Translations under genes and position numbers: made by a program
Shown here: piece by piece, positions 3,505 through 64,000 of the stretch
Position numbering within the stretch: position 1 is the first letter of the stretch
Layout of the letters: every line of letters starts with the position of its first letter
From: Asterias amurensis
Taxonomy: Eukaryota
DNA: 64,000 nt
Assembly (NCBI RefSeq): GCF_032118995.1
Contig: NC_092652.1
Coordinates: 27,299,339 to 27,363,338, forward strand
Direction of reading: 5' to 3'
The notes under the pieces: generated by a model
Seen by the model: the letters and a program-made list of their open reading frames with translations, nothing else
What the model was told of the DNA's origin: nothing
Databases searched by the model: none

Positions 3505-4399
3505 AAATGGTCATCAATGCAATACCTTCACAAAATGTAAAATGGCTGTCAGAAAAAATGATAATATCAATCCAACTGAAGCAATCATGAAATGCAATCA
3601 ATGTAACCAATGCAAAAACAAATCAGCAATAGCAAAATATAATCTTTGAATGCAAATTGGAACACATCAATATTCAGAAGAAGAAAAAATTCTGTACGCA
3701 ATTGAAGTACCAGAAACAATGGAATTTTCGTGCGACAATTCTGAAGGAAATGACTTCAATTATCTCTACCCAATTGAGGTAATAAAGAGAAACTTTCACA
3801 CAGCTGGACAATCAAAATGTCTCAAATACAATACAAAAGAATTTACAGGTGTTCTTTTACACCCCAGGAATTTAGCATCGCCAAAGGCAAACAACAATGT
3901 ATGGATTAAAGTTCTTTTCAGCTGAATGAGAACTTTAAGTACCTACTCCCATTAAGTGGACACCTGTCTAAATGCCAGACAAGATTAATGACTCCTAACA
4001 ATACCAACAATACCAAATCCGAATCCAAAATACAATTGAGACTTGATTCAATCAAATTCCAATAATGTCAATGTTCATAATGGGAATTGTTCATCAGCTG
4101 CTTGTCTGGTGGTAACAACCGAACGCACTCTTAATCGGCACAGTGGAAGAGTACAAAGGAGGTCTTTAGTCCGTGTGACAATGCTATTGTGTTTATTGTC
4201 CTGATGATGGTGCTTTCCCGATCGTATGAGTTTAAACAACTATGAGTTTGTCCAAAATGGAGGCGATCGAATTCTTTGCGAGAGTTCGTGAAATCTGCAA
4301 ATTTTTATTATTGGCAAAATGTTCAAGAACACCGCGATAAACTTGTTCTTGATGTTGGCGAAAATGTTCAACAGTTCCGATCGTGAAGAAAAAACATCC

Positions 4400-9485: not shown

Positions 9486-9790
9486 ATCAATATAAACCAC
9501 AAGGGAAACTGACTGGGTAAATTGAAATGATTTTTGGGGTTGAACAAAGGTGATCCCCTGGCTGCCGCTTCCCAGATTGTATCGTAATTTGGGTGTGATC
9601 CCTGGCTACACGGCAGAATGGTTGAATGGCTTCTGACTGGCACCCCGAACAAAGATATTGACAACATAGGGACACTGCCATATAGGACTAGATAGCTCAG
9701 TTGGTAGAGCGCCGGCACGTTAATCTGGTTGTCGTTGGTTCGAATCCCACTCTAGTCAATTCTTTGTTCACCCCCAAAATACTTTGAAAT
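9486..9790 (+). mobile_element. tRNA-Asn(GTT)-derived SINE, inverted dimer (left unit truncated to its tail, right unit with complete tRNA-like head)
   Basis: tRNA-like 9686-9758: acceptor GACTAGA/TCTAGTC, D-arm GCTC-AGTTGGTA-GAGC, anticodon loop ACGTTAA, T-arm GGTTCGAATCC. Shared non-tRNA tail TCTTTGTTCACCCC, and its reverse complement GGGGTTGAACAAAG at 9521-9540. The central 140 bp is inverted relative to the copy at 26505-26830. Confidence 0.7.
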
Positions 9791-15980: not shown

Positions 15981-17001
15981 ATATTAAAAGTCTTAAGGTT
16001 TAACGCTTTGAGTTTTAGTTTGATTTAGCCAAAGGAGGTAATGATCTATTAATAATAATTGTAATAAAAAGATATTTATAAAGCGCCAAATTGCCAAAAA
16101 GGCCTCAAAGCGCTAGATACAAAGGTAAAAAGCAAAGTATTTGGCACAAGATGCCCCATCACTGGTAACAACTTAAAGGAAACTAATAAAGATACATGTC
16201 TTATCACTAAATATGCCAAATAATAACAGCCTTTTAAGCATGTAAAACAGTGTTATTTATGTAACCATATTAGTATCGTTTCCTGAATTTAATTTAAGCA
16301 TGTGCTGAATGAAAGGTTTCCCAGGTTTGATTGTTGAGAGTAAGAATTTACTAGCTTTAAAATGTTTGTATGCAAGTTGCCTGACACACAAGGCCTCAAG
16401 GCCACTACAAGGTGTGGTCTACAATCAACTATTTTTCGAGGGGTCAATGCCACCTACTCTTGGGGCTGAAACAGGGTTACCCCCTTTACAGACCATAAGA
16501 ATGTAGGCTTGGGTATCATCAATCCGAAGCCTGGCTGGTAGAGCAGAAAGCACTACCTCCTCAAGCTATCCTTATCATGTGAAACTGAGTCCTGGTTTAT
16601 GAATGATGGGAAACATCCTTTAGTGCACTGAATAGACTGGGGTTTAATGCCTTAATGGTACTTTATTGCAGATGGGTTACAGCCGGCGAAGCCAAAGCAA
16701 AATAATCAAGGTTGAAATAGCTGCCAATTATAGAAAACAAATCACTGTCATTAGTGGAAATTGCATGTTGTATAAGTTTGAACTTTACATCTGTGAAATA
16801 CCCACCGCAGCAGGGAAGGTTTTGCAGTGCAAAGAACTTTGGAACTTTGATGCATTACAAAACAAAATTAACAAAAAACTTGCATGAACTCCCCCCTAAA
16901 CAAGGTATTTGTGTTTCTTATTTTTCGTAATTGTTTACAGGGAAATTTACATTTTAGTGCACATTTCCTCAATTGGTTTGAAGATAAAGTTACTAAGAAT
17001 A

Positions 17002-23110: not shown

Positions 23111-24635
23111 CCACCCATGCAACCCATTATATTGTCTTATTGTGAAACACGAGAACAAGTTTTGCTAAATAGAAAACAAAGGCCTTTAGTTTGTGATCCA
23201 GTTAAAAGTAAAGTAATGACAAAGTGAGTCAAGATGAACAACCGCCATTGTCTTCATAGAGAGAGCTAATCAAACCGATATAAAGAAGACCTTAAATACG
23301 CCGCAAAAAAGGAAGCAATGCAACATTTGCTTTCAAAAGAATGAGCTATTCAGTCAGAGCAGATACAGGCTTGATTATATCATTCTGTGAAATTAATATC
23401 AGCTTAAAAAAACATTTCACCAACGAAAATATGATGGAAAGTGATAAATGAGGGGGAACATACAAATGGATGAAAATGATACAGCTTTCTTGAAGATATT
23501 ACCATGTAATAGACTGGTATTAGTCACTCATCAATCATGCAAGGTCAGTAGCATCAAAAAGAGGATAAAAAATAAAACAGAAAAGAAAGAATAAAGCAAC
23601 ACACGCAAAAATGAGGTGAAAATCAAGTCACTCATGCGCAGGAGAACACAACACTCAAAGCTCAACCAATCAAGCTGTTTACAGTTTGTAAAAAACATGG
23701 ATATAAGAATCAGCAACAAACATTGAAGAATTGTTAAGCACTTCAAAATATATCACACTTTGTATTTTTAAATGTAAAACAAAAGCAAACACACTGGCCA
23801 TCTTAATGCCATCTTTTTGTTAAAAGTAAGATAAGGAATGAATTTTTAACCCTAGCAGTGTTCTGAACAGAATTTTTGGACTACATGTATGTATTGGTAG
23901 GGCTGATCAATTACCCTGTTTATAATGCATTTCTTATAGTCACACCAAGACCAGAAAATAACCTTTTTAAAAGTTCTTGTTGTGACCAAAATGAAGGTTT
24001 GAAGTCAGCTTTAGAACTTGTGCATGCCCTGACTGCAGTCATTGAATCAAGAATTTGTATCTGTATTTTCTAAAATATAGTTGAAATTAAAAGAGTAAAA
24101 TGCATGCCATAAAGGCACTGCTAGGGTTAGTTTCACACAGCAATCTGGTTGATTCTCAAGACAAATTAATATCCCCTTACACCCCCCCCCATGGCCAACA
24201 AGGAATCTGAGGCTGTGTTCGGATGTGTGACTGTGGCTTGGTGAACATGTGCTGAAGCATAGGATAACCATAGCAACAGCAATAGCCGTAGCCAACAACC
24301 CGCACACAGCCTTTTCATCTTCTCTTGACTCTGATAAAAAAATTGAGTCTAGCCCAAAGTAATAGGTGGCTGGTACCAAAGGTCAACAATTTTTATTTCT
24401 TTTTTGTTCTGCAAAACAGCAGACAGTCTTTGGTTAGTGTTAAACCATACAAAAACGGTCACTAGAAGAGTGCATTGGGCACAAGAAAAGAGAAACTTCC
24501 AATGTCACAATAAAAATTAAAGATTGTCTTTCAATCAACACTCATCAGCTGATAAAAATATCTGTTATCAATATACTGATTGACAGTTTTACTGGTTGAA
24601 TCCTAATCATCTTTTGGTATCTACTCTTGACTTAC

Positions 24636-38339: not shown

Positions 38340-39250
38340 TTGCCCTCTACCCATCCACCCAACAACCCTCCCTCCACTGAATTGATTCAAATGCAACTTT
38401 CTCCTTCCTCCACCATTTAATCACCCACCCATTTATCCACCCATCCTGTGGTACTGTAGTTTTGCCATCCCTCAGCCCTGCCCTATACCCAGTGATACCC
38501 ACCCACCGCTTCATCCAACCATCCTAATGCAATCCTCATTCCTCAACCTTACCCTATACCTGCCCACCCCTTCATCCACCCATCCTGATGCAATTTTCCC
38601 CTTCCTCAACCTTACCTATACCCACCTACATCTACCCCTTCATCCACCCATCCTGATGCAATTTTCCCCTTCCTCAACCTTGCCCTGTACCCACAAACCT
38701 TTCATCCACCCATCCAAATGCAAACCCACTCCTCAACCTTACCCTTTATTCACCCATTCTAAGATGCAGTGTTCCACCCTCGACATTACTCATACCCCCT
38801 ACCCATTCATCCACCCATCCAAATGCAAACCCATTCCTCAACCTTACCCTTTATTCACCCATTCTAAGATGCAGTGTTCCACCCTCGACATTACTCATAC
38901 CCCCTACCCATTCATCCACCCATCCAAATGCAAACCCATTCCTCAACCTTACCCTTTATTCACCCATTCTAAGATGCAGTGTTCCACCCTCGACATTACT
39001 CATACCCCCTACCCATTCATCCACCCATCCAAATGCAAACCCATTCCTCAACCTTACCCTTTATTCACCCATTCTAAGATGCAGTGTTCCACCCTCGACC
39101 TTACTCATACCCCCTACCCTTTCATCCACCCATCCTAATGCATTCCCACGAGTACCTCTTCACTCAACCCATCCAATGCAATCCCATTTCTCAACCTTTC
39201 CCTATACCCACCCACCCCTTCATCCACCCATTCTAATCTAATTGAATAGC
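38340..39250. repeat. satellite array: ~60-70-bp units grading into four near-identical 120-bp units (38700-39130)
   Basis: A CATCCACCCATCC(W)AATGCAA core recurs. The 203-aa ORF at 38527-39138 is only the periodic translation of this repeat. Confidence 0.9.
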
Positions 39251-39778: not shown

Positions 39779-40566
39779 ATTGTTTAGGTTGGATTTATCT
39801 GACCATCCTTTTGTTATTTACTTTAGCACCTTTCCTCTTCGTGGTTGTGCTGGATTATATAATGAGGCACGCTTTACGAGGTATTCAGCAGGAAACAGGA
39901 ATTGTGCTTAAAGAAAGATAGAGCAGTCGTTATCCAGAGATCCGTCTCCATGATGTAGCACTCTTGTCAACATCAGTTGACACTGCAGAATCATTACTTC
40001 ATAGTACTGAGGAGGCTTCCAATTGTGTCGGTCTTCATCTAAACACAGGAAAAACGAAGACTCTCCTCGTGAACATTCCTCCAACATCCAGTATACAGAC
40101 TCTTGATGGTACGAAACTTAAAACTGTTTCAGATCTCAAATACCTCGGCTCATCACTACCTGACTCATTCCAAGATTTCAAATGCAGGAAAGCGCAAGCA
40201 TGGTCAGCATGTAACCAATTAGATAAGATCTGGAAGTCTGATCTTGACAGAGCTATCAAAATCAAGTTCTTCAGGGCCTGTGTTGAAAGCATCTTGCTAT
40301 ATGGAGCCGAAACATGGACAACAACACAAAAAGTGTATGACCGCATCAACGTTTGCTACACTCAACTGCTGCGTAGAGTTATCAACATCCACTGGCGGGA
40401 CCATACTACAAACGGGAAGGTTTATGGCAATCTACCACCACTTTCCGAGACCATAATGCAGAGACGTCTCCAGTTTGCTGGCCACTGTTTGCAAACAGCG
40501 GATCAACCTGATATATATCATTGTTTAGGTCGGATTTATCTGACCATCCTTTAGTTATTTACTATT
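39779..40566 (+). mobile_element. non-LTR retrotransposon RT fragment (RTE/jockey-like), truncated at both ends and degenerate, bounded by 48-bp direct repeats
   Basis: Encodes ..FLFVVVLDYIMRHALRG.., LHDVALLS (degenerate FADD box), ..GLHLNTGKTKTLLVN.., ..KIKFFRACVESILLYGAETWTT.., ..RRLQFAGHCLQ... The repeat atcattgtttaggtYggatttatctgaccatcctttWgttatttact occurs at 39776-39823 and 40513-40560. Confidence 0.7.
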
Positions 40567-46889: not shown

Positions 46890-47340
46890 AATATACCTCA
46901 AGATGGGCGAGGGAAAACAAAAGTTACCAGAGTAACATGCCTGTGATAGTTTTTCACAGGAATCGGGAAAGTACTGAGTATACAGTGCTAACACACATCG
47001 GTGTATGGGTAAAAAACTAAAATTAATATTCTTTATCCCTGATGCAAATTCAACATCTATTATATCGTTGCGGTACCCGCTGCCAAAACATAGGATTCGA
47101 ACTGCCTCTAGCTGCCGGGCAACCTCGGTGGTCTAGTTGGTATGACACTGCTCTAGAATTGCAAGGGTCGTTCGTGGGTTCGAATCCCACCCGAGTAACA
47201 TGCCTGTGATATTTTTTTTCTTTTTTCACAGGACTCGGGAAAGTACTGAGTATACAGTGCTAACACACATCGGTGTATGGGTAAAAACCAAAATTAATAT
47301 TCTTTATCCCCGATGCAAATTTAACATCTATTATAAAAGC
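46890..47340 (+). mobile_element. cluster of tRNA-related SINE family 3: a tail-only copy (46921-47045), tRNA-like heads (47046-47200), then a full tail (47195-47335)
   Basis: Direct ~130-bp repeats gagtaacatgcctgtgat...cacaggaMtcgggaaagtactgagtatacagtgctaacacacatcggtgtatgggtaaaaaMYaaaattaatattctttatccc. Between them ..ggtggtctagttggtatgacactgctctagaattgcaagggtcgttcgtgggttcgaatcccacccgagta (T-arm GTGGG-TTCGAAT-CCCAC). Confidence 0.6.
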
Positions 47341-51608: not shown

Positions 51609-52629
51609 CCAGAATAATGAGGCATATTCAACGTTGTGCATTTTATTACTACTTAATATAATTATCTCGAAGTGTTGATACTAATTGAAAAGGGAAAAGT
51701 TTCCGCATGCCGCCACCGTTTTTCATTTCATATGAAATAATATTTCAATTCATTTACCTTTCTTTTTAATGAGATAGGGGAAAAAGTGGTGGCGCTATAC
51801 AGAAAGTTACCCATAAAAAGTATACACAAAATTCCATCATGAAAACCTTGACCCAGTAAACATTGACCTTTGACCTGGGTCGGTACTAATAAAAATTGTT
51901 ACAAACAATAGACTTTGCAAACATTTTCTTTTTTGCACCACTCCGTAGTCCGACTGACTTTCACACATTGTTAATTGTTTTCAAGTACTTACTACTATTT
52001 CCTGATAAGGTTCGTTCTCTTTCCCTTTCCTGCCCTAATCTAGTCGCTGCTGGAGTGTCGGCGTCTGCCATTTTGTCACCCGTTTAGAAAAGAACACAGC
52101 AATTTCTACAAAATTGTTACATTCACATACGCAGCACACACAGTCTTTTTTTGTGTACAAAATACGGCCTCCGCCCGTCGCCTCACGTGTGTGTTGAACT
52201 ATTAAACTTCATAACATTTCCGTCTGAACATTCAGTTCACTCTCATGGAATTCACAGCAATAAAGATTCCTTCAGGTCGCCGACTTTCATTATTTTCACA
52301 TCTTTTCTGCTAAAATGTTGTATTTTTATCCCGATATTCCTCGGTTCTCTACTTGTCAATTACCGGAAACTAAACCTGTAAATGTTGGCTGGTTTCCATG
52401 TGTGCTGTATATTCCAATACATTATTGAATGGTTTATCGAGTACCAGTTTAGTACCGGCCTCTTTCTTGCCCGAACATCTGACGTCATTACTTTGAAGCT
52501 CGTATGATAAAGACAGGGGACCAGTCTAATAACAAAGACGGTCAAAGCAGTGTTCTTTCAGCGCCCTCAACGATGTAAATAACTTTATTTGATGCTGACT
52601 CAAGTCAATGTTCAGTGATTTTCCACTTA

Positions 52630-52659
52630 CGCTGAGTTTGACCCCCGGATTGGAGCACA
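52630..52659 (-). CDS. PIP5K1: PIP5K1-like gene, exon 1 coding part (ATG plus 9 codons); 5' UTR extent unknown
   Basis: ATG in aaaaATGt context preceded by an in-frame TGA two codons upstream. Encodes MCSNPGVKLS, then donor CAGC|GTAAGTGG. Phase 0 join to exon 2. A short N-terminus is consistent with PIP5K1B-like proteins. Confidence 0.6.
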
Positions 52660-53419
52660 TTTTTCAACCCCGTGTTTCCATGGAGGTAAAAATATGATGT
52701 TTCTAACATCAAACGGAGCCCAAAGCCGCAGACGGAAACGAAGTTCAGGTTTGGAAAAAAGCCTCTCTGCTGGGGACTCCAAAAGCGACGGCTTAGAAAG
52801 GGGCAAACAATATAAAAATTTCAGTTCAGACCTTTCAAGATCAAGTAAATAGATATACACAACAAAGTAGAAAATGAAAGATATTCTTTGCACTTCAGTA
52901 CTGTTGAATTTCTCAACCCCTTACATAAACTTTGACTTCATTCTTCTTCTTATCGTATCCACCAAACACTTAGATGAGTTTCAGCCAGAACTCTTACACA
53001 GTTCCTATTGCAATATCACTGTACTCTGGGTGCAAGGTCCTCGATTTTGCAGTCTCGCTCCAAATAGGTGTTCCATTATAGTTTGTGGCTCTGTCCCACA
53101 TTATGCATGTCACGTCTTCAAGAGAGTCCAGATAAAAGTCACTTCTTCTTGCGAGACACCTTGCACAGGCCAGTTGGAGGGGGCACCTCCATTCGTTCCA
53201 TCAATTGATTCAGCACCGGGTGGGGTGGGGGATCTCTTCTGCCATTGAAAAACACTTGTTTTTATATCAGATATTATGTATCCAATTATAGTAGTTTGTT
53301 TAGGCGTGGCCCTCTAAGTAAACTTTCCTATTGACTTTGAGTATCAAATCATGATTTCGTTATTAAATTTACCCGAATCACATTGAACGTTCTCATAAGC
53401 AATTTTAGTAGCACCAGTG

Positions 53420-53900
53420 GGAACGTCAATGTCCCGGTGTGTGAAGGCAGTGGCGCTTTTGTTCACGAGACTGCGTTCACGAGACTGTGAGCAAAAGGGG
53501 CACGTGAGCTACAATGCCTTTCTGCCATTTCTGCACAACTCTGCCGCGCGCGCCAAGCATACGCGCACGCATCGGGCTTTATTTCGATGCAATGGATCGG
53601 TCTATTGGTCGTTGCGCAACGCGTGAAGTTGAACGCCCTCCCGGCGCCCGCAAAGCGCTGACCAGCAACGCGTACAATAATACCGCGCGCACACACACAC
53701 ACACACATGCATTTTTTAAAAACTAACGTACGACGTCGTCGTCACACATGCCCCGACAACACTCTCTGAACACATCTCTCTACACGATCGACGAGACACT
53801 GTGCACAGCAGTAGGCCTACTTACTAACCGACGACTAGCAGACGATCAACCTGCTGAAGAAAACAAAATTCGGTGTCGCCGGGACTGATCGTAGCAATAA
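53420..53900. promoter_or_regulatory. CpG-rich island between the divergent PIP5K1-like (minus) and membrane-protein (plus) genes; candidate shared or bidirectional promoter region
   Basis: Dense CG dinucleotides (gccgcgcgcgccaagcatacgcgcacgcatcgggc..cgcaacgcgtgaag..cccggcgcccgcaaagcgctgaccagcaacgcg..) within an otherwise CpG-poor AT-rich window. Contains a (CA)8 tract and a tandem cacgagactg x2. Confidence 0.5.
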
Positions 53901-54264
53901 CTATGAGTTGTCTTGTGAAATGTTGTGATTATTGCATACCAGGTAAGTTTAAATTGACGAATCAATTGCAGAAGCAAAATAAATACATTCACACGACTAA
54001 AAAAAACATGACCGGTGCGCACGGACTGTGACACTCTCGGTTGGCGGAAAGTTTGAACGAATCCAATTAAAATCGTGGTATGATTGGTTCATAACCTTCA
54101 CCGGACCTGTAGCTAGCTATATCCCTGCCGTAGGACAAACAAAATTGTGATGCAGAAACTTATGTTTACTTAGCCTAACTTTTATAAAACGAAAATCAGT
54201 GGTTAGGACCTAACTTGTTTTGTTTTTTTAATTTAGTAGGCTTCGTTTGACAACCCTGTTTTTG

Positions 54265-55185
54265 CACGTCCATCGATTTCACCCTACACGCAACTGCTCT
54301 TCAAAACAATCTTGACACCATGGGCTGAAACATGGAACATGAAGTTTAACCAAGACAAATGCCACACCATGCGCTTCACCTTGCTACGTAAAACCATAAA
54401 CACTGAGTACAATCTCGGTAGTAGTGCTCTTACTACAGTTTCTGAACATCCCTATCTTGGCCTAACTCTTACAAGTAACCTGTCATGGCAATCCCATATA
54501 GACATCATAACTGCAAAAGCTAACAGGATGCTTGGACTCATCAGACGTAACCTCAGAGGCTGCTCCCAGAAGCTACGGCAACAAGCATATCTTTCTCTTG
54601 TCCGTCCACATCTCGAATACTATAGTACAGTTTGGAACCCGCACACCAAGAAAAACATCACCAAAATAGAAAAAACCCAGCGCCAAGCTGCCAGATTCAT
54701 CTTCAACAACTACCACAGCAGGGACAGCGTCTCCAAAATGATAGATGATCTTCAATGGGACTCTCTTGAAAAACGCAGACAGTCTGCTAGTATCTCCTTG
54801 ATGTACAAGATCCGCTATCGGCTAGTAGCCATCAATCCAACCCAATACCTCATACCCATGATCCCAAGCAGTACTCGATCCTACCACAAATGTAAATACC
54901 TAACCATCCCAGCACGTCTCCAGCTCTACAAATATTCGTTTTTTCCACGAACAGTTTTGAGGTGGAATGCCCTCCCCAGCCAGATCCTCGAGCTCCCATC
55001 CATCGGGGTCTTTAAGGGGGCGGTTGGAGCAACCATTTAGCTACCTCCCAACTTTTTACTCACACCTTGTACAATAAAATGCACCTGCAACACTTGGCAC
55101 CGCACATAAGCAGCTATCCTTGGCGTTTATATCCTGACTGAAGGACTATGCCAAGTATCGAAGTAGAAGTAGAAGTAGAAGCAAC
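54265..55185 (+). mobile_element. CR1/L2-like non-LTR retrotransposon, 5'-truncated 3' fragment (RT C-terminal domain plus 3' UTR ending in a (GTAGAA)3 microsatellite)
   Basis: ORF ..WAETWNMKFNQDKCHTMRF...ANRMLGLIRRNL...LVRPHLEYYSTVWNPHTKKNITKIEKTQRQAARFI...LSLEKRRQSASISLMYKI...FFPRTVLRWNALPSQI.. matches the CR1-family RT C-terminus. The track start at 54312 is a TTG alternative start, not a true initiator. Confidence 0.8.
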
Positions 55186-55594
55186 GTTTATCATGTTTAT
55201 GGCGTAAAGTTGCGCCATAAACGTTGTGCAAAAAACTGCAAGTGGAATTACGGCGTTGCAAGTTTACGCAGTTGCGTAAAGTTTCGTGAAATCGGCTCCC
55301 TGCACAAAGAGCTAATTGATCTTTAACTTAATGCGAATCAATCTTATTTCGATAGTGTGATTTCAAAATCATCACTAAAACATTTTTTTTTTTTTTTTTT
55401 TTTCCTTTTTTAACTTGTGCGAGCAAAGTAATTTCTTCTAAGTTCTAGTGGTGGACTACTTTGGAGATTATTAAAGTTTTCTTATGTCATGTATGTATTT
55501 ATGTCTTCTCATCTTTAGTTAAATGACTCTTAGTTCGTTTTTAGAATCGAACCACTGAACCACTGACAAAAGTAGGAGAGCATTTTGTAGACTA

Positions 55595-55668
55595 GTTGCG
55601 ATAACGTAACCCTCCTCCCGACGGCCGTCAGCTGGCGGCCGTCGGGAGGAGGGTTACGTTATCGCAAC
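55595..55668. repeat. 74-bp perfect palindrome (two abutting MITE-C termini)
   Basis: gttgcgataacgtaaccctcctcccgacggccgtcagctggcggccgtcgggaggagggttacgttatcgcaac. Confidence 0.85.
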
Positions 55669-55715
55669 TATTTGTAGATATTTTTTTATCATGATTTTTG
55701 TTTAATTCTATCCAG

Positions 55716-55851
55716 CTGTAAAGGGGTATCTTGAATGTATCTGTCCGTGGATTTACCGCATATTCTTTGGCACTGGTCGATGTGAATGTGTGGCCGTAAG
55801 AACAGTGTTGGGTCTCGCCTTCGGTGGTCTGCTTGGTGCAGGTAATAATTC
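55716..55851 (+). CDS. multi-pass membrane protein gene (possibly DC-STAMP-domain family), first recognisable coding exon; 5' boundary uncertain
   Basis: Open frame ..CECVAVRTVLGLAFGGLLGAG (hydrophobic) ending at donor GTGCAG|GTAATA. The 1-nt overhang fits the 2-nt start of the next exon. No in-frame ATG, so an upstream coding exon is missing or unrecognised. Confidence 0.45.
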
Positions 55852-56235
55852 GTTAATTGTTTTACCTTTTCCAAAGACAAAGTCCCGTTTGAAATGTGTT
55901 TTCTCTGAATTAAAACCACTTACTTTTGGGCGTTTTGGCAGGACTATAAGGCAAACCCCATTTATTTCGATGGCATTATAGGCCCATATATAAGCCTACC
56001 ATCTTGCCAGTTCCGGAAAAAAAAGATCAAAAACATGAAAGAAAAAGTAACTTAATTTGGAGGTTATAATGTCTATGGATGTGATACTACAGTATAATAG
56101 CAACAGATTGTAGTGTTTTATAATTAAATGCATTACAACTTTAAGTTAACAAAAGAACACACAATTTTCCAAATGGAAGAGACTTCATGACATTTTCCTA
56201 AACTAAAACCATTTCATTTCCCCTCCAAACTGCAG

Positions 56236-56439
56236 GCCTTTATGTCAGTATTGTAGACAAACTCAATTATCCAGAAAAAGAGCGTCAATTATTTGGCGGA
56301 GTTCTAACCCTGCTTTTAGCTGTTGGATTTGCCTGCTCAGTTCAGGTTCGATGTATTGTTCTACTTAGTGTGCCAACTTTCTTTGGGCGGTTTGGGCGAA
56401 GTCTCATCACAAGTTATGCCATATTTTTATTGGTAACTG
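56236..56439 (+). CDS. membrane protein gene, exon 2
   Basis: Acceptor ccctccaaactgcag|GC, donor AACTG|GTAAGT. Encodes LYVSIVDKLNYPEKERQLFGGVLTLLLAVGFACSVQVRCIVLLSVPTFFGRFGRSLITSYAIFLLVT (two predicted TM helices; an RC..LL..P....GR......LL..GP pattern reminiscent of DC-STAMP-like proteins). Confidence 0.7.
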
Positions 56440-56529
56440 GTAAGTATATCATACACTTCCAATTAATATATCAAATATTTTTAACCACAAGGCAAACTGT
56501 CTTCGTAAATTTTAAATTGAATAGAGAGC

Positions 56530-56640
56530 CCGCCAAAATAGGGCTATAGATAGTTCAGCTGGTAGAGCGCTGGCATGTTAATCCAGAGGTCTTTGGTTCG
56601 AGTCCCACTCAAAATTTTCTTTGTTCAACCCCATTTCCAA
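56530..56640 (+). mobile_element. tRNA-Asn(GTT)-derived SINE monomer (intronic)
   Basis: gggctatagatagttcagctggtagagcgctggcatgttaatccagaggtctttggttcgagtcccactc + tail ttctttgttcaacccc. Anticodon loop ATGTTAA (GTT). Degenerate acceptor stem, so not a functional tRNA. Confidence 0.65.
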
Positions 56641-57704
56641 TTTATCATGTAGTTATCAAAGCTGGGAAATGCAGATTTCCTTGATACCTCAAAGAAATAT
56701 GTATGTTTAAGAAATATGTATGTTTCCTTTGAAACAAAGGGCATCGGGGCAACAACCTGGGGGGGGGGGCACAGAGGCAATAGACCCTTCCCATGATGAT
56801 GTAAATTGCACGTAGCGCGTGCGCACTAACGTTTTGGTTGGCAAAATGAGGGAACATCGTGCTGTTTTGTACACGGCTAATGGGTGCGCGACGCAGACGC
56901 GACTGCGCGTCTGCTTAGTGCACAACTCCATGGCGTTTGCCAACCAACAGGGTCTGTACGCATGCGTGAATGTAATTAGCATATTTCATGGGAAGGGTCC
57001 ATTGCCTCATGTGGTGGGAGCTATTTAGATTGAAGGGATCCAATGGAGCCATTCAAAGGTTTGGAGGTGCTAATAAAGTTGGCAGCCAACCATGCCGAAA
57101 TATCAGGAGACTTTCTCAAGTGTATTTGGACCTCAGCTACAAGTCCATGATCGTTTTTTTATTTAACATAAACATCTGAAGAACAAGGCAGTTGTGCCAT
57201 GAAGAGTATACTATATTTAAGCAAAGATTTGAATGGTCAACTGGAGATTCGTTATTTGAATGTTAGGCATGGGTGCCATTCTGTGGGAAGCAAATGTTTT
57301 GTTATAGCACTGATAGCAGGGGGTCAATGTCTGCTCTGATCTATTGTTGCATAAAAAAAAGTTGCTTACTCAAAATGGTGTCTAGTGTGAATAAGAAACC
57401 TTCCTATGTGCTTGACACAAGCAGGTTTATATTCTGATGGTCTTCTATTGTTGTACTAATTTGTAGTAGTCTTTATACATATACAATAATGTGAATCTGT
57501 AAAACTCAATTTATGACATGGCGTAACCTCAAACCTTTAGCCCAAAAATTGTTCCACATAGCATGGAATACAAGAAAGTTCGAAACCATGTCCTTCCACA
57601 TACTACATAGCATGGAATAGTAGAGTTCGAAACCATGTCCTTATTTTAACTTCTTTTTGAAAGATTGGATTATAACCTTTTTTTGGCATAATATCTGTCC
57701 GCAG

Positions 57705-57844
57705 GTCCGATGAATAATATTATGCTGAACGCAGATGAGTCATCTCGGGCTATATCATGTACAACCGATCTAACATTCAACCACAGTAAAGAAATCTTCA
57801 AGTTACTCTACAAACCCTTCCATGATGCCTTCATAGATGCTGGG
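57705..57844 (+). CDS. membrane protein gene, exon 3
   Basis: Acceptor atatctgtccgcag|GT, donor GCTGGG|GTACGT. Encodes PMNNIMLNADESSRAISCTTDLTFNHSKEIFKLLYKPFHDAFIDAG. Phases match exons 2 and 4. Confidence 0.7.
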
Positions 57845-57908
57845 GTACGTCTTGGAAATCTTTACATCATATCGTGGCTCAATTTCATAGAGCTGCTTAA
57901 TAAAAATA

Positions 57909-58665
57909 AAGGCAGATGGACACTATTGGTATTTACTCAAAATAATTATTAGCATAAAACCTTACTTGGTAACGAATAATGGGGAGAGGTTGACAGTATA
58001 AAAAATTGTGAGAAACAGCTCCCTCTGAAGTAATGTAGTTTTCGAGAAAGAAGTAATTTTCCACGAATTTGATTTCGAGACCTCTAGATTTAGAATGTGA
58101 GGTCTCGAAATCAAGCATCTGAACGCACACAACTTCATGTGACAAGGGTGTTTTTAAAGGAACACGTTGCCTTGGATCGGTCGAGTTGGTCCTTGAAAAG
58201 CGTTCTGCAACCGTTTGTTATAAAATCTGTATGGTTAGAAAGATGTTGTAAAAGTAGAATACAATGATCTACACAAATATGCCTCGAAATTGCGTGGTTT
58301 TCTTTTTACTTCGTCGACTAACACTGTCGGCCATTATGGTAGTCAAATTTTTGACTCCCATAAATGGCCGACCGTGTTAGTTCGCGACGTACAATGAAAA
58401 CCGTGAAATTTTGAGTGATACTTGTGTTGATAATTATATTCTACTTTTAAAACATCTTTCTAACCATATGCATTTCATAACAAATGGTTTAAACGCTTTT
58501 TATAGACCAACTCGTCCGATCCAAGGCAACGTGTTCCTTTAATTTCATTATTATCTTGCAACTTCGACGACCGATTGAGCTCAAATTTTCACAAGTTTTT
58601 TATTTTTATGCATGTTGAGATACACCAAGTGAGAAGATTGGATTTTGACAATTACACAAATATTT
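57909..58665 (+). mobile_element. MITE family A copy interrupted by a nested MITE family B insertion (58158-58538) with TTAA target-site duplication
   Basis: Family A 5' end ggcagatggacactattggtatttactc.. and 3' part ..ttttcacaagttttttatttttatgcatgttgagatacaccaagtgagaag... Insert TIRs aggaacacgttgccttggatcggtcgagttggtcc / ggaccaactcgtccgatccaaggcaacgtgttcct, flanked by ttaa on both sides. Confidence 0.75.
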
Positions 58666-58859
58666 GCTACAGTAAGCACGAAAATTTGCTTATCGTTAGG
58701 CAGCACTATGAAATTGGGCCCTGGTTGGCACAATTTTACGTGCTTATTGTTTGTGTTTAAGCAAACTCTACGAAATTGGTCATGTGTGCTTAAAATGTGT
58801 GTAATCTGTACAATTATCCTTTCAGCTTTTTTTCAATTTTTATCTCAATCTTGGCATAG

Positions 58860-59034
58860 ATTCGACAGGATGCAATTGATGACGATGCTGAGACAATGAA
58901 AAGTCGATTTCGCTATTATGTTGAGGAGATTGAAGGGGATCGTTTTGAAAAACTGCGAAAGTTTAACGAGGAAGAGAAAACTAGTGACTCAATCAAACAA
59001 GGCTTCAACCTAAAGAGCCTCAGAAGATGTAAAG
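58860..59034 (+). CDS. membrane protein gene, exon 4
   Basis: Acceptor ctcaatcttggcatag|A, donor TGTAAAG|GTAAAA. Encodes IRQDAIDDDAETMKSRFRYYVEEIEGDRFEKLRKFNEEEKTSDSIKQGFNLKSLRRCK. Confidence 0.65.
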
Positions 59035-59768
59035 GTAAAAATAATATGAAAATAATTACACAGAACTTTCTAGCTTTTAAACAATTGCATATTCAACGAA
59101 TAAAAAACATTTGGTTAAGTGTATATATACAAAAAAACATGGTGTGACTTTGATTGAAGCTTTGATCTAGCTCAAATAGGAAAGGAGAGAGTATTTGAGA
59201 AACAGTGGCTTGAGTTGGTGTGATGTTATAACATCACTGATGCATGCTAGGCCCCCACCAACCCCTATCAACCACAGAATCATCTAAAAGTTCTGTGGTC
59301 AGTCCACTTTCCAGTAGTTACCAAAGAAAAAGAAGATGTAATAAAAAAAGTCCAGGAGACCTATCGATTACATATCCCCATATGGTTACAATAAAAAGAC
59401 AACAAAAAAACAACCCAAAACAGAAAAAGAAAATACACAGTTTCTGTTGAAGAATTAGCAACAAGTGAACTTTACTGGTGGCAAAGTAACAAAGTAGAAG
59501 TTTACAAAAACTACTGATAAACAAATGAAGAAAAGAGATTTCACAAAGATTGCCATAATAAGTCCTCTTTACCTTGTTTAATGTAAGTGCTGTGATTTAA
59601 TTTACTAAGCAGAGCGTCTTTAAATGCTGTTCATTAGTATTTTTCTGGATTTCTTATTTTCACTCATTTGGCAATATAGGATAAGAAGTGTAAATTACTT
59701 TGGCCCACCCCGTCAAATGAAGGCATGTGTCATTATCATGGGAAATTCTGTTTCTGTTTTGTTTTCAG

Positions 59769-59906
59769 ATGTTTTTGTAGAAGGTTTAGCAGAATGTGAA
59801 CCAGCTTATCATAGAGTATGGGCTACGTGCAAAGAACGTTACCCCGTGTGGCACTTGATTGTCTGTCTGCCATTGCATGCATTTACCGTCTGCTCACTGC
59901 TTAGAT
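59769..59906 (+). CDS. membrane protein gene, exon 5
   Basis: Acceptor ctgttttgttttcag|AT, donor TTAGAT|GTAAGT. Encodes (D)VFVEGLAECEPAYHRVWATCKERYPVWHLIVCLPLHAFTVCSLLR. Confidence 0.7.
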
Positions 59907-60320
59907 GTAAGTTAACCTAAAATCAGATTGGAGATCGATTAAGACTTATCCAGGAAAGCACAAAATTAGTTTCAATTTTATACAGGCTTACATTAGGGTA
60001 CACAAACTTGTTCCTTTTGGGCCCAATTAGGTTAAACCTAATTATTATTTTGTAATATTTTGGCAACGTTTGTTTAAAAAAAAGTTTCTTTGAGGCAATC
60101 CCTCAAGCTGGGAGTAGTTTCAAAACAAACTTCAACTTGTACTATTTAGTAGCACCAGAAATGAAACAGAAAATGAAGATGAAATTAGTAATGACAGAAA
60201 ATTAAATATTACCAGGTTCATCCCGATAGTCACATGATGCTTAACAATGAAAAAAGAAAGACAGTATGCGTTATTGGAAGATCTCTAAACAAATGTCATT
60301 TGAATCTTGATTAATCACAG

Positions 60321-60442
60321 TGCTGGAGGGATTTTGTCCGTCATTACCCAATCAACCAAAGAAAACCATTGAGATGTTTATGAGAGTCAAGAATGGATTT
60401 AGATCATTGACCAAAAACTTCAAAGTCAAGCTCAAATGGAAA
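60321..60442 (+). CDS. membrane protein gene, exon 6
   Basis: Acceptor gattaatcacag|TG, donor TGGAAA|GTAAGA. Encodes (L)LEGFCPSLPNQPKKTIEMFMRVKNGFRSLTKNFKVKLKWK. Confidence 0.65.
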
Positions 60443-60908
60443 GTAAGACGGATGCATGTTGTTGACTTTTGTCTCTTGCCGTTGTTAAATGCATGCTGCT
60501 ACCTTTGTTGTTGCTTTTGTGTCAGTTGTTGTATTGTTGTGAAATTTCTTGATCTAATAATTGACTATAAAGTGAAAAAATAAATGAAAAATGACTAATG
60601 GTTACATAGATACATTGCATGTTAAGTTATTTATCCAATGCATACAAATTTATTGTTTTCTAGTCATGAAGCTATATAGGACTATGTTCTTCTTATACAA
60701 TTTTAATTAAATTCTTAAAAACAAAACAGACCGAATATTGTCAGGCCTAATACTTCACTGAGGCAACAAAGGTGATAATTTATATTCCATACAATATTGG
60801 TGTTCCCTGATAAAAGATTCCCTGAAACAAGAACCAAAGAATCAAACCTGCATTATCGTTGACCTTAACCAAAGTTGTATTAAACACAAACCACTTTTTC
60901 TTCAACAG

Positions 60909-61066
60909 TCAATCCACTTTCCAGTACACCTTTTGAACACTACAGCAATTGAAGCCGTTGTTCGTAAAATGAACCATGAGATTCACATAAAGAAGCAATG
61001 GCTGGATGCTTTGGTTTTCATTGTTGAGGTTCTGCTCTCCTTCGCATTTGTTTTGGTGTTCATCAG
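60909..61066 (+). CDS. membrane protein gene, exon 7
   Basis: Acceptor ccactttttcttcaacag|T, donor CATCAG|GTAGGT. Encodes SIHFPVHLLNTTAIEAVVRKMNHEIHIKKQWLDALVFIVEVLLSFAFVLVFI (TM helix). Confidence 0.75.
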
Positions 61067-61204
61067 GTAGGTTGAGAATGACATGGCTGTTTATTTATAT
61101 GGGGAAAAGGGGCTTGATTTTCTCAAATTTTACACAAATAAAATTATCCAAATACCAATAGCGGATAAAAGTCTATTGCTTTCTCTGTCCAATTGTTTGG
61201 AAAG

Positions 61205-61367
61205 GTGGGGGATACTGCTTACATGTTTAAACTCAGCTATGAATTTCTTTTCTTGGCATACATTCAGTGCTAGCGGTTACAACACCAAGTACCTTAAAGA
61301 CATTGACTTTGATAATGTATACATGACGGCCTACTTCAGGAGGATTGATGCCCGTAGAAAAAAACAG
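61205..61367 (+). CDS. membrane protein gene, exon 8 (acceptor chosen to keep phase; a stronger-looking AG at 61235-61236 is phase-incompatible)
   Basis: Acceptor ttgtttggaaag|G (weak polypyrimidine tract), donor AAACAG|GTGAGT. Encodes (R)WGILLTCLNSAMNFFSWHTFSASGYNTKYLKDIDFDNVYMTAYFRRIDARRKKQ. Confidence 0.55.
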
Positions 61368-61451
61368 GTGAGTGGAAATAGAGAAGTGTAAAAATACAGC
61401 AACTTGAAATAATGTTTTGAAATTAAGAGCATATTATTCCTCTGCTTACAG

Positions 61452-61547
61452 AACAAGAGAACATTGCTTCCTTTGAAGAAAGCACAGAAATCAGACATCA
61501 TTGAGACAGTTCGTTGGAAGTTGAGAAAAGAAGAAAAAAAATCATCG
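61452..61547 (+). CDS. membrane protein gene, exon 9
   Basis: Acceptor ttcctctgcttacag|A, donor CATCG|GTCAGT; 84-bp intron upstream. Encodes NKRTLLPLKKAQKSDIIETVRWKLRKEEKKSS. Confidence 0.7.
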
Positions 61548-61600
61548 GTCAGTGTCATCTCTCAGAGTAGAGTTTCTCTTCAAGTTTCAATCAAGATTAA

Positions 61601-61985
61601 AGGAACACGTTGCTTAGGATCGGATGAGTTGGTCTTTGAAAAGCGTTTGTAACCCTTTTTTATAAAATGCATATGGTTGGAAAGATGTTTTAAAAGTAGA
61701 ATATAATGATCCACACAAGTTTGCCTCGAAATTGCATGGTTTTCCTTATACTGTGCGAACTATAAACACGGTCGGCCATTTATGGGAGTCTAAAATTTGA
61801 CTCCCATAAATGGCCGACCATGTTAATCGACGAGGTAAAAGGAGAACCGTGCAATTTCGAGGCATGTTTGTGTGGATCATTTTATTTTACTTTTACAACA
61901 TCTTTCTACCCACATGCATTTTATAAAAAACGATTACAAACGCTTTTCAAAGACCAACTCGACCGATCCAAGGCAACGTGTTTCT
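61601..61985. mobile_element. MITE family B copy with TTAA target-site duplication and an internal palindrome
   Basis: ttaa|AGGAACACGTTGCTTAGGATCGGATGAGTTGGTC ... GACCAACTCGACCGATCCAAGGCAACGTGTTTCT|ttaa. Internal ggccatttatgggagtctaaaatttgactcccataaatggccgacc. Confidence 0.75.
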
Positions 61986-62257
61986 TTAATATCAACTCAT
62001 TACTTTATAGATGACATAATTATTAAGATACTAACAAAACCTTGCTGTAAGCAAAGAAAGCCACAACATTCTGCAATAAAGATATATTGACGGCATCACT
62101 CGTAGAAAACAGTCTAATAAAATCATCAAAATTTATCTTCAGTGTTAAACCAATAACATGATTTGGTCAACTACAAACAAATATCCCAAGTAATTGCCTT
62201 TACTGTGGATAAACCCTTGTTGAGATATTGGATGTCAAGCTGTCGATTTAACAAAGA

Positions 62258-62570
62258 CTTAGGACTCGTCCTGCAGATGGATTTTGTGAAATCGATCCTA
62301 TGATGGGTCTTACAGAGGATCCAAAGGCTAAGGCACGGTCCCACTGCAGCGATAACGATAACGATAACGATAAAAAGAGAACGCATTCCATTGGTTGAAT
62401 GAGCGTGTGCGTATTCTGCGGGGAGCAATTCAACCAATAGAATGCGTTCTCTTTGCTTTGTGATCGTTATCGTTTTCGTTATCGCTGCAGTGTGACTCGG
62501 CCTTTAGACTCGTCCTAAAATCTAGGATGGATTCTAAGTTAGGAAGAGTTTTGTGAAATCAACTCCAGGT
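62258..62570. repeat. hairpin-forming inverted repeat (about 65-bp arms with (CGATAA)n and CCAAT motifs) flanked by ~40-bp direct repeats
   Basis: ctgcagcgataacgataacgataacgataaaaagagaacgcattccattggttgaat...attcaaccaatagaatgcgttctctttgctttgtgatcgttatcgttttcgttatcgctgcag. Flanks gactcgtcctgcagatggattttgtgaaatc / gactcgtcctaaaatctaggatggattctaagttaggaagagttttgtgaaatc. Confidence 0.75.
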
Positions 62571-62774
62571 CTTGAATCACTTACTCTGCATTTATCCAGT
62601 CAGACTTGAAATGCAACACACAAGTTAATAGTATGGTTGAACATGTCCTCCGCGGTACCCTCAAATACCATGCACTTGAGAGTATGATCTTTCTACAGTT
62701 TACCCCAGTTTTGAGAGACCCGTTCTGGAGTATATGTGTCATTATTGTACAATGAACCTCAATTTCTCCAACAG

Positions 62775-62901
62775 TTAATGGGTTTCATGAGACTCACCAT
62801 GCGATTAGTTGTGACCGTTGCCATGGTATTCTTTGACCATCTCTTCTTTCTCATGCTGGATCTAATTGCAAGAAATAGTCAATTGGACTACAAATTCAAA
62901 G
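62775..62901 (+). CDS. membrane protein gene, exon 10
   Basis: Acceptor caatttctccaacag|T, donor TTCAAAG|GTAGGT. Encodes LMGFMRLTMRLVVTVAMVFFDHLFFLMLDLIARNSQLDYKFK (TM helix). Confidence 0.75.
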
Positions 62902-63487
62902 GTAGGTGTACATACTGCCCCTAGTCTAAGAAGTGGCGAAGCAGACGGTTGTTATTGGGGGTGGGGGTGGGGGTGGGGGAGACATAATGTTGTTTTGGGG
63001 GTGGTGGTTGTTATTTAATTAGTTGAATTCATTTGTGCATAATGTACTCTAAAGCCTGGTTCATACTTCCTGCGAATGCGAAGCGAATGTTGACCCCACA
63101 AATTCGTAACAAATAATTCGCAGCAGTTGAACTCTGCTCGACTCGCTTGTGAATATCGCCGCAAAAGGAGGGTTGTGACGTCAAATTCAACCTCTCCCCA
63201 TTACTCGTCATCAAGAAAGGATTTATGCTAATAATTATTTTGAGTATTACCAATAGTATCCACTGCCTTCAACCAATGTTACAATGTATCAAAAAAAAAT
63301 CACATAAGTGTAGGGGCCTATCTCGCATATCAAATTATCAAGATAAAGTGATCTCAACAAAAATAAAAAAGAAGTAGATGACACATCTGAGATGTTGCTC
63401 ACGATGTAAAAATGAACAACAGCTTTACATCAACGCTAACTTCCCTCTATCAGGTTGGTTTTACTCGTCACATTTATTTTATTGCAG

Positions 63488-63604
63488 GGGAGCATAGACT
63501 AGAAGTAAAAGTTGAAGGAACAGGAATCGTTGCCCAAATGTTTAGAAAAGTTCTCTCATCATTTAGCCAGCAACACAGCATATCTACAATTGCAACAAAC
63601 AAAC
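63488..63604 (+). CDS. membrane protein gene, exon 11; gene continues or terminates shortly after
   Basis: Acceptor tttattttattgcag|GG, donor ACAAAC|GTAAGG. Encodes (G)EHRLEVKVEGTGIVAQMFRKVLSSFSQQHSISTIATNK. A phase-compatible acceptor at 63691 would give a short terminal exon ending ..NSLEAETTKSNTGDQALHSEMEI*, with low confidence. Confidence 0.65.
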
Positions 63605-64000
63605 GTAAGGGATTGTGTTTATTAGATTGATTGAACACAAAGATTTTGCCACAACACATTGTAAACCATTACAACGTGCTCTGTATAGACAACAGTCTTG
63701 AAGCCGAGACTACCAAGTCCAATACCGGAGACCAAGCTCTCCACTCTGAGATGGAGATTTAGACCTCAATCTAAGGGGGAGACCGGGATTGACACCTTCT
63801 CATCGAGACCAAGACAGGGGACCAACACCTCAGACAGTACTGTGAAAAAAAAGGGGAACAAAATCAAAACTAACTTTCTTGATTTTGTTTAATGCTGAAC
63901 TGCTGAAAGCTTGGCTCAGTCTTCACTACGATTGTAACATGGCCACTAATTGGACTTTGGACTAAACAAAAATAAGGCCTTGACACAAAACCCCCCCGAG

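What the first reader, a model, noticed from the sequence alone, without database searches (positions are those of the whole stretch)
55716..63800. Second hidden gene: an 11+-exon multi-pass membrane protein (DC-STAMP-like?) on the plus strand
Eleven plus-strand segments with canonical splice sites and fully consistent phases encode a protein with at least five strongly hydrophobic helices: VAVRTVLGLAFGGLLGAG, LFGGVLTLLLAVGFACSVQV, ITSYAIFLLVTG, WLDALVFIVEVLLSFAFVLVFI and LTMRLVVTVAMVFFDHLFFLMLDLIA. These are separated by charged loops. The segment RCIVLLSVPTFFGRFGRSLITSYAIFLLVTGP recalls the RC..LL.LP..GS..GR...LL..GP signature I associate with the DC-STAMP/OC-STAMP/DCST family, but I cannot verify this. 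The initiator exon and the 3' end are not captured. Exon 8 requires a weak acceptor to stay in phase.
Basis: partly seen in the sequence, partly recalled or inferred. Interest (0 to 1): 0.55.

Follow-up and report, generated by a model that had tools for sequence, protein, structure and literature searches.

The report
Sea star DCST1 sperm-fusion gene
The flagged stretch is the first three-quarters of the sea star (Asterias amurensis) DCST1 gene, a multi-pass membrane protein whose relatives in mice, fish, flies and worms are needed in sperm for fertilization; it is real, but already annotated in public databases and ordinary.

Summary
All eleven plus-strand segments exist, have AG/GT splice sites and join in one frame.

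The 12 exons translate to 514 aa, identical to residues 1-514 of the 686-aa NCBI model 'E3 ubiquitin-protein ligase DCST1-like [Asterias amurensis]'. The product hits Pfam DC_STAMP (PF07782) at E=8.8e-34. That match is cut off only by the window end.

Exon lengths and splice sites are the same in the A. rubens ortholog, and the Acanthaster planci ortholog aligns as a matching series of exon-sized blocks. A tree with named DCST2 proteins puts the sea star protein on the DCST1/Sneaky side (100% bootstrap split).

The last ~4 exons (final membrane helix and cysteine-rich RING finger) lie about 0.4-2.5 kb past the window end.

By homology, the likely function is a sperm-membrane partner of DCST2 needed for sperm-egg binding or fusion. 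This is inferred, not shown.

Two of its details are wrong: the 'weak acceptor' and the 'initiator not captured'.

Novelty: already known. One small side note: in sea stars the gene sits head-to-head with PIP5K, not with DCST2 as in chordates.

The parts
53903..53942 (+). Coding exon 1 (initiator): ATG, MSCLVKCCDYCIP plus the first base of the next codon; donor CAG|gtaagt.
   Evidence: The exact peptide is found at 53903 and the sequence was read directly. The exon is 40/40 identical to A. rubens L001:10001-10040.
55716..55841 (+). Coding exon 2 (residues 14-55); holds the first hydrophobic helix, VAVRTVLGLAFGGLLGAG.
   Evidence: DCST1 profile hit E=3.9e-7.
56236..56439 (+). Coding exon 3 (residues 56-123); hydrophobic helices and the invariant RC..LL..P..G..GR motif.
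   Evidence: DCST1 profile hit E=4e-27.
57705..57844 (+). Coding exon 4 (residues 124-170); GP..N...N..E...C motif and the start of the long ectodomain helix.
   Evidence: DCST1 profile hit E=4e-18.
58860..59034 (+). Coding exon 5 (residues 171-228); charged far end of the predicted stalk. It is the most divergent exon between the two Asterias species.
   Evidence: 7 of the 21 amino-acid differences. Low pLDDT at residues 198-210.
59769..59906 (+). Coding exon 6 (residues 229-274); conserved cysteines C238, C249, C261 and C270.
60321..60442 (+). Coding exon 7 (residues 275-315); donor AAA|gtaaga.
   Evidence: Reading through the following intron meets a stop at 60581-60583.
60909..61066 (+). 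Coding exon 8 (residues 316-367); membrane helix WLDALVFIVEVLLSFAFVLVFI.
   Evidence: strongest hydropathy peak, 2.93. Profile hit.
61268..61367 (+). Coding exon 9 (residues 368-401); start of the Pfam DC_STAMP domain, with the DNVY.T.YFRRIDARRKK motif.
61452..61547 (+). Coding exon 10 (residues 402-433); TLLPLKK motif and a basic loop.
62775..62901 (+). Coding exon 11 (residues 434-475); membrane helix LTMRLVVTVAMVFFDHLFFLMLDLIA.
   Evidence: 127/127 identical to A. rubens.
63488..63604 (+). Coding exon 12 (residues 476-514); last coding exon in the window. The Pfam DC_STAMP match stops here at profile position 130 of 191.
   Evidence: In A. rubens the next exon lies at L001:19878-20036, which is about 0.4 kb beyond the window end.
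52072..53902 (.). 1.83-kb region between the divergently oriented PIP5K start codon (52071, minus strand) and the DCST1 start codon (53903). It presumably holds the promoters and 5' UTRs of both genes; that is inferred.
   Evidence: for the PIP5K start. for the same arrangement in A. rubens and Acanthaster.

Best explanation
Window 53903-63604 (+) carries the first 12 coding exons (residues 1-514 of 686) of the Asterias amurensis ortholog of DCST1 (DC-STAMP domain-containing protein 1; Drosophila Sneaky).

Shown here:
- The exon chain, the Pfam DC_STAMP domain and placement on the DCST1 side of the DCST1/DCST2 split.
- Exon lengths and splice sites identical in A. rubens; matching exon-sized alignment blocks in Acanthaster planci.
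- An intact reading frame under purifying selection.

Inferred from hydropathy, the AlphaFold model and the literature: a protein with about six membrane helices. It has a long helical, cysteine-rich extracellular stalk (about residues 126-344), a conserved basic cytoplasmic loop (DNVY.T.YFRRIDARRKK...TLLPLKK) and a cytoplasmic C-terminal eight-cysteine (C4C4) RING-like finger. The finger is encoded just past the window end.

Inferred from mouse, zebrafish, fly and worm genetics: it is made in male germ cells and pairs with DCST2 in the sperm membrane. It is needed at the last step of fertilization, stable sperm-egg binding and/or membrane fusion. I put the gene identity at about 0.97 and this fertilization role in sea stars at about 0.65.
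For: Gene model and family:
- The 12-exon chain translates exactly to residues 1-514 of P0001, 'E3 ubiquitin-protein ligase DCST1-like [Asterias amurensis]'.
- Pfam DC_STAMP: 117.5 bits for the window product, truncated at profile position 130/191. The full model scores 199.8 bits over 1-191/191.
- Collinear per-exon profile hits, and none elsewhere in the window.

Conservation:
- A. rubens has the same 12 exon lengths with AG/GT sites. tblastn of the Acanthaster protein against its own locus gives a matching series of exon-sized blocks.
- dN/dS is 0.47 against A. rubens; the excess of synonymous changes has p=0.017. There are no amino-acid changes in exons 9-11.

DCST1 rather than DCST2:
- BLASTP against falcon DCST1 gives 297 bits/28% identity, against falcon DCST2 209 bits/25%.
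- In an NJ tree the DCST2 clade splits from the rest at 100% bootstrap, with the sea star protein on the DCST1 side.

Structure:
- Hydropathy peaks at residues 38-63, 73-106, 254-277, 345-374 and 433-466.
- The AF2 model (pLDDT 75) has long stalk helices at 107-195, 211-252 and 326-378.

Function, from papers:
- DCST1/2 are testis-expressed and required in sperm in mouse and zebrafish. They have 5-6 membrane helices and a non-canonical RING, and each stabilises the other (PMC8989947; PMC8055269).
- They are proposed as the core of the sperm SPARK complex (PMC13192892).
Against: - P0001 is a computer-made gene model from the same genome. Its 100% identity therefore does not independently confirm the splice junctions.
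- No RNA-seq or expression data were available, so testis or sperm expression in sea stars is untested.
- No DCST2 partner was found near the gene. The genome-wide presence of DCST2 in Asterias was not checked.
- dN/dS rests on only 37 substitutions.
- The tree has DCST2 only from sauropsids plus a partial amphioxus sequence, and no DCSTAMP/OCSTAMP outgroup.
- The membrane topology is from a crude hydropathy scan and a medium-confidence model, not a dedicated predictor.
Confidence: 0.9

Rival explanations
1. The gene is the DCST2 (SPE-42-type) paralog rather than DCST1.
For: Both paralogs share the same Pfam families (PF26039, PF07782, PF26037). A DCST2-only profile also hits four of the window's exons weakly.
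Against: All named hits are DCST1/Sneaky. The protein scores 297 bits against falcon DCST1 and 209 bits against falcon DCST2. The tree places it on the DCST1 side of a split with 100% bootstrap.
Confidence: 0.03
2. The locus is a decaying pseudogene or a gene-prediction artefact: open exons with no function.
For: No expression data were available. dN/dS of 0.47 is not very low. The A. rubens model differs by 98 residues taken from an intron.
Against: - The reading frame is intact over 514 codons, and all 11 introns are GT-AG.
- Exon lengths are identical in A. rubens.
- Every column that is invariant across 30 DCST1 homologs is kept.
- Substitutions avoid the DC_STAMP core and cluster in the ectodomain, the pattern expected of a working gamete protein.
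Confidence: 0.03
3. Its main role is as a membrane-bound RING E3 ubiquitin ligase in signalling (human DCST1 is reported to target STAT2), not in gamete fusion.
For: The NCBI name, and the Nair et al. 2016 paper as cited in PMC8055269 and PMC8830517. The full model keeps eight cysteines in the C-terminal finger: C630, C633, C644, C649, C654, C657, C665 and C668.
Against: Loss-of-function phenotypes in mouse, zebrafish, fly and worm are male-fertility defects. The RING is non-canonical. The two roles are not mutually exclusive, and nothing here tests ligase activity.
Confidence: 0.1

Closest known systems
DCST1 (vertebrates) / Sneaky (Drosophila) / SPE-49 (C. elegans, orthology as given in PMC8055269)
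   Same: - Pfam DC_STAMP domain.
- N-terminal RC..LL..P..G..GR...GP..N motif.
- Cysteine-rich helical ectodomain.
- DNVY.T.YF..ID.RR...TLLPL loop.
- C-terminal eight-cysteine (C4C4) finger, present in the full model.
- 27-37% identity over the whole length, and placement on the DCST1 side of the tree.
   Different: - In mouse and zebrafish (PMC8989947), and in falcon and amphioxus, DCST1 lies head-to-head with DCST2. In the three sea star genomes examined its head-to-head neighbour is PIP5K, and no DCST2 exon is nearby.
- The N-terminus is short (14 aa before the first conserved block), without the basic extension seen in molluscs and vertebrates.
- Function in echinoderms is untested.
DCST2 (vertebrates) / SPE-42 (C. 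elegans)
   Same: Same domain set and overall architecture; about 21-24% identity. It is the presumed heterodimer partner.
   Different: It forms a separate clade (100% bootstrap) and scores lower in pairwise comparison (209 vs 297 bits).
DC-STAMP / OC-STAMP (vertebrate osteoclast and giant-cell fusion proteins)
   Same: Same Pfam DC_STAMP family; multi-pass membrane proteins with a cytoplasmic C-terminal tail; implicated in cell-cell fusion (PMC8989947).
   Different: They form a vertebrate-only branch; invertebrates are reported to have only DCST1/2 (PMC8989947). They were not compared by sequence here.

Membership tests
DC-STAMP-like proteins (Pfam PF07782) | Match to the DC_STAMP profile above Pfam's gathering score | tested here: met
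   The window-encoded 500 aa score 117.5 bits against a cut-off of 25, E=8.8e-34, over profile positions 1-130/191; the window end cuts the match. The full gene model P0001 scores 199.8 bits over 1-191/191.
DC-STAMP-like proteins (Pfam PF07782) | Multi-pass membrane protein (5-6 predicted membrane helices; PMC8989947) | tested here: met
   Kyte-Doolittle peaks of at least 1.5 (19-residue window) at residues 38-63, 73-106, 254-277, 345-374 and 433-466. The AF2 model has helices at the same places plus 525-559. This is a crude method; no dedicated topology predictor was run.
DC-STAMP-like proteins (Pfam PF07782) | Cytoplasmic C-terminal non-canonical RING finger with invariant cysteines | tested here: met
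   It is not encoded in the window. In the full model P0001, C630, C633, C644, C649, C654, C657, C665 and C668 fall in invariant or nearly invariant columns. The exons are seen in the A. rubens locus at L001:21115-21489.
DCST1 orthologous group (as opposed to DCST2) | Groups with named DCST1/Sneaky proteins and apart from DCST2 in a phylogeny | tested here: met
   NJ tree on 634 columns with 200 bootstraps: sauropsid DCST2 plus the amphioxus DCST2 neighbour split from all others at 100%, with the sea star protein on the other side alongside the named DCST1/Sneaky proteins. Pairwise scores are 297 bits against DCST1 and 209 against DCST2. Limits: a distance method, few DCST2 taxa and no outgroup.
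DCST1 orthologous group (as opposed to DCST2) | Male germ-line expression and requirement in sperm for fertilization | not testable with these tools
   No expression or genetic data for sea stars were available. A literature search for DCST1 together with echinoderm terms listed no paper that mentions DCST1 among its top results.
RING-type E3 ubiquitin ligases (the NCBI product name) | Ubiquitin-ligase activity of the RING domain | not testable with these tools
   The name is carried over from human DCST1 (Nair et al. 2016, as cited in PMC8055269). Only the cysteine pattern could be checked.
DC-STAMP / OC-STAMP subfamily | Groups with vertebrate DCSTAMP/OCSTAMP rather than DCST1/2 | not tested
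   No DCSTAMP or OCSTAMP sequence was retrieved. PMC8989947 states that invertebrates have only DCST1/2.

The most novel reading that the evidence does not exclude
The head-to-head DCST1-DCST2 gene pair is shared by amphioxus, birds, fish and mammals, but it is broken in sea stars. There DCST1 instead shares a 1.8-kb divergent intergenic region with PIP5K.

If DCST2 has moved far away or been lost in asteroids, co-regulation and mutual stabilisation of the two partners would have to work differently. Echinoderms are the classical model of fertilization, and their sperm-egg fusion machinery is still unknown.
Probability: 0.25. Interest if true: 0.3.

Novelty: already known. Interest (0 to 1): 0.1.

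Why it matters
It matters little as a discovery. The gene is already in NCBI's annotation of this genome, and it belongs to a well-studied family.

Its modest value is as a confirmed echinoderm DCST1 locus. DCST1/2 are the only sperm fertilization factors known to be shared by vertebrates and invertebrates. Sea stars and sea urchins are easy systems for fertilization experiments, yet no study of DCST1 in echinoderms turned up.

Two small leads could guide such work. First, substitutions between the two Asterias species cluster in the predicted ectodomain. Second, the adjacency to DCST2 is lost.

Tried and rejected
Searches that returned nothing useful:
- Fetching the A. amurensis locus itself to see the missing 3' exons: the protein is 'not on record'. 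I used the A. rubens and Acanthaster loci instead.
- A profile search with a DCST1 alignment to reach DCST2: only 10 hits, all DCST1-type.
- Looking for DCST2 sequences in the supplements of PMC8989947: none are held as text. I got round this by fetching the falcon and amphioxus DCST1 loci, assembling the neighbouring DCST2 exons and searching with those.
- The afdb50 fold library was not available.
- Foldseek against the PDB gave only generic coiled-coil matches at E>=0.57. A sequence search of the PDB found nothing relevant. So no solved DC-STAMP-family structure was found to compare with.
- A literature search for DCST1 in echinoderms listed no paper mentioning DCST1.

Ideas considered and rejected:
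- Chance open frames: rejected by the per-exon profile hits.
- Pseudogene: rejected.
- DCST2 identity: rejected.
- A second DC-STAMP gene elsewhere in the window: none found.
Full report
**What is in the sequence**

Eleven plus-strand segments are each preceded by AG and followed by GT:

- 55716-55841
- 56236-56439
- 57705-57844
- 58860-59034
- 59769-59906
- 60321-60442
- 60909-61066
- 61268-61367
- 61452-61547
- 62775-62901
- 63488-63604

The only adjustment concerned the seventh segment: my first trial boundary was one base too long, and the donor is AAA|gtaaga at 60442.

Acceptor tracts are 60-85% pyrimidine.

**Is it more than chance?**

A profile built from DCST1 homologs hits each of the eleven stop-free segments on its own, with domain E-values from 1.4e-4 to 4e-27. 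The hits run in collinear order along the profile. Nothing else in the 64 kb scores below E=1 on either strand.

**What it is**

- The 500-aa product matches Pfam DC_STAMP (PF07782) at 117.5 bits (cut-off 25), E=8.8e-34. The match covers profile positions 1-130 of 191 and stops at the last exon in the window.
- A protein search returned a 686-aa entry named 'E3 ubiquitin-protein ligase DCST1-like [Asterias amurensis]', 100% identical over the whole query. Next came A. rubens 'protein sneaky-like' (95%) and Acanthaster planci 'DC-STAMP domain-containing protein 1-like' (46%). After those came DCST1/Sneaky proteins of amphioxus, bees, molluscs, a brachiopod, birds and mammals.
- The window therefore comes from the sea star Asterias amurensis, and the gene is already annotated.
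- That entry is a computed model from the same genome, so the identity does not independently prove the junctions.

**The missing ends**

The model starts with MSCLVKCCDYCIPA. With it, the 12-exon chain translates exactly to residues 1-514.

The remaining 172 residues are not in the window. In the A. rubens locus they lie in about four further exons (L001:19878-21489). The window end corresponds to about L001:19490. So the gene ends roughly 2.5 kb beyond the window.

The full model gives a complete DC_STAMP match (199.8 bits, positions 1-191/191). It also has eight cysteines in conserved columns of the C-terminal finger.

**Independent support from other species**

- I fetched the orthologous loci of A. 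rubens (L001) and Acanthaster planci (L002). All 12 exons have identical lengths and AG/GT sites in A. rubens.
- tblastn of the Acanthaster protein against its own locus gives a matching series of exon-sized blocks. I did not check Acanthaster exon boundaries or splice sites base by base.
- Between the two Asterias species the coding sequence differs at 37 sites, and dN/dS is 0.47. Synonymous changes are in excess (p=0.017).
- Of the 21 amino-acid differences, 16 fall in the predicted ectodomain (residues 126-344; Fisher p=0.0025). None fall in exons 9-11, the DC_STAMP core.
- This pattern argues against a pseudogene. A fast-changing ectodomain is what one would expect of a gamete-surface protein.

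**DCST1 or DCST2?**

The word-indexed searches returned only DCST1-type proteins, but they are not exhaustive. I therefore obtained DCST2 sequences indirectly:

- The loci of falcon and amphioxus DCST1 each carry a second DC_STAMP gene head-to-head.
- I assembled its exon matches and searched with them. This returned named DCST2 proteins of birds, turtles and alligator.
- The sea star protein scores 297 bits (28% identity) against falcon DCST1 and 209 bits (25%) against falcon DCST2.
- In a neighbour-joining tree (634 columns, 200 bootstraps) the DCST2 sequences split from all others at 100%. The sea star protein lies on the DCST1 side, next to Acanthaster.
- Limits: a distance method, few DCST2 taxa and no DCSTAMP/OCSTAMP outgroup.

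**Architecture and likely mechanism**

- Hydropathy peaks lie at residues 38-63, 73-106, 254-277, 345-374 and 433-466.
- An AlphaFold2 model built on 30 homologs (mean pLDDT 75) shows long helices at 107-195, 211-252 and 326-378. They form a stalk-like domain between membrane helices. Further elements are a helix at 427-467, a small beta unit at 471-512, a helix at 525-559 and the C-terminal finger.
- No solved structure resembles it.
- These features fit published descriptions of DCST1/2. Those report five or six membrane helices, a cytoplasmic non-canonical RING and testis-specific expression. They also report a requirement in sperm for egg binding or fusion in mouse and zebrafish, and mutual stabilisation of the two paralogs (PMC8989947; PMC8055269).
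- A 2026 preprint places a DCST1/2 heterodimer with a stalk-like ectodomain at the core of a sperm complex called SPARK (PMC13192892).
- By homology, the sea star protein most likely acts the same way. This step is inference: no sea star expression or genetic data were available, and a literature search for DCST1 in echinoderms listed no paper that mentions DCST1.

**Surroundings**

- Upstream on the minus strand is a PIP5K gene. Its exons at 27798-28115 and 29149-29358 hit Pfam PIP5K, and its start codon is at 52071.
- The two genes are divergent, with start codons 1831 bp apart. The order PIP5K(-) | DCST1(+) | DUF4210-family gene(-) is the same in A. rubens and Acanthaster.
- In mouse and zebrafish, and in falcon and amphioxus, the head-to-head neighbour is DCST2.
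- A DCST2-only profile finds no DCST2 exon in the window or in the sea star flanks, although it strongly detects falcon DCST2 as a positive control.
- Whether sea stars have DCST2 elsewhere was not tested.

**Verdict**

The gene is a new sighting of something already annotated, from a well-known family. Interest is low.

Noticed in passing
Its start codon is at 52071, and exons at 29149-29358 and 27798-28115 hit Pfam PIP5K (E=1.5e-18 and 1.8e-34). It is head-to-head with DCST1, with start codons 1831 bp apart. The same arrangement is seen in A. rubens and Acanthaster.
   Followed up: partly
window 1-53900; L001 and L002 flanks; L003 1-9640; L004 5591-9323: In falcon and amphioxus (and, per PMC8989947, mouse and zebrafish) DCST1 lies head-to-head with DCST2. 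In the three sea star loci no DCST2-like exon lies in the 10-kb flanks, nor in the 54 kb upstream in the window. The pair is therefore not adjacent in sea stars. Whether DCST2 exists elsewhere in these genomes was not checked.
   Followed up: partly
window 56544-56616 (+), intron 3 of DCST1: A tRNA-like relic. It matches the Rfam tRNA model at 29.7 bits, just above the gathering score of 29, but ARAGORN does not call it. It matches the tRNA-Asn(GTT) gene at 9686-9758 through most of the tRNA body but not at the two ends that form the acceptor stem. It is likely a tRNA-Asn pseudogene or the head of a tRNA-derived repeat.
   Followed up: partly
window 58154-58542 and 61596-61990; also 55593-55670 and 62320-62508: Palindromic elements inside DCST1 introns that look like miniature inverted-repeat transposons. 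Two ~390-bp copies of one family have long inverted arms starting TTAAAGGAACACGTTGC. Copies of the same family occur in the A. rubens locus at 16539-16949 and 24353-24657. There is also a near-perfect 39+39-bp palindrome and an 81-bp-arm inverted repeat.
   Followed up: no
window 54240-55037 (+), intron 1 of DCST1; also 39922-40551 (+): Open frames of 266 aa and 210 aa. From memory, they resemble the C-terminal part of non-LTR retrotransposon reverse transcriptases. Pfam gave no hit for the first and only a weak DUF6451 hit for the second.
   Followed up: no
window 60443-60908 (intron 7); P0002 residues ~316-413: The A. rubens gene model (784 aa) carries 98 extra residues translated from sequence that is intron 7 here. 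In the window, reading through that intron meets a stop at 60581-60583, and Acanthaster and the other homologs lack the insert. This is probably an annotation artefact in A. rubens.
   Followed up: partly
window exons 4-8 (57705-61066), protein residues 126-344: Amino-acid differences between A. amurensis and A. rubens cluster in the predicted extracellular stalk: 16 of 21 (Fisher p=0.0025), seven of them in exon 5 alone. The DC_STAMP core exons 9-11 are identical between the two species.
   Followed up: yes
window 2-3510 (-): An LTR-retrotransposon-like gag-pol open frame at the window start. It has aspartyl protease, reverse transcriptase (RVT_1, E=1.1e-38) and RNase H domains, plus a weak PNMA/gag-like hit.
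   Followed up: no
window 38386-39238 (+): Proline- and histidine-rich open frames of 194-250 aa that repeat internally (units such as PYPFIHPSKCKPIPQPYPLFTHSKMQCSTLDITHT). They lie in a stretch with strongly negative GC skew (-0.38). The nature of this stretch is unknown.
   Followed up: no
window 9686-9758 (+) and 47122-47199 (+): Two tRNA genes called by ARAGORN: tRNA-Asn(GTT) and tRNA-Ser(AGA).
   Followed up: no
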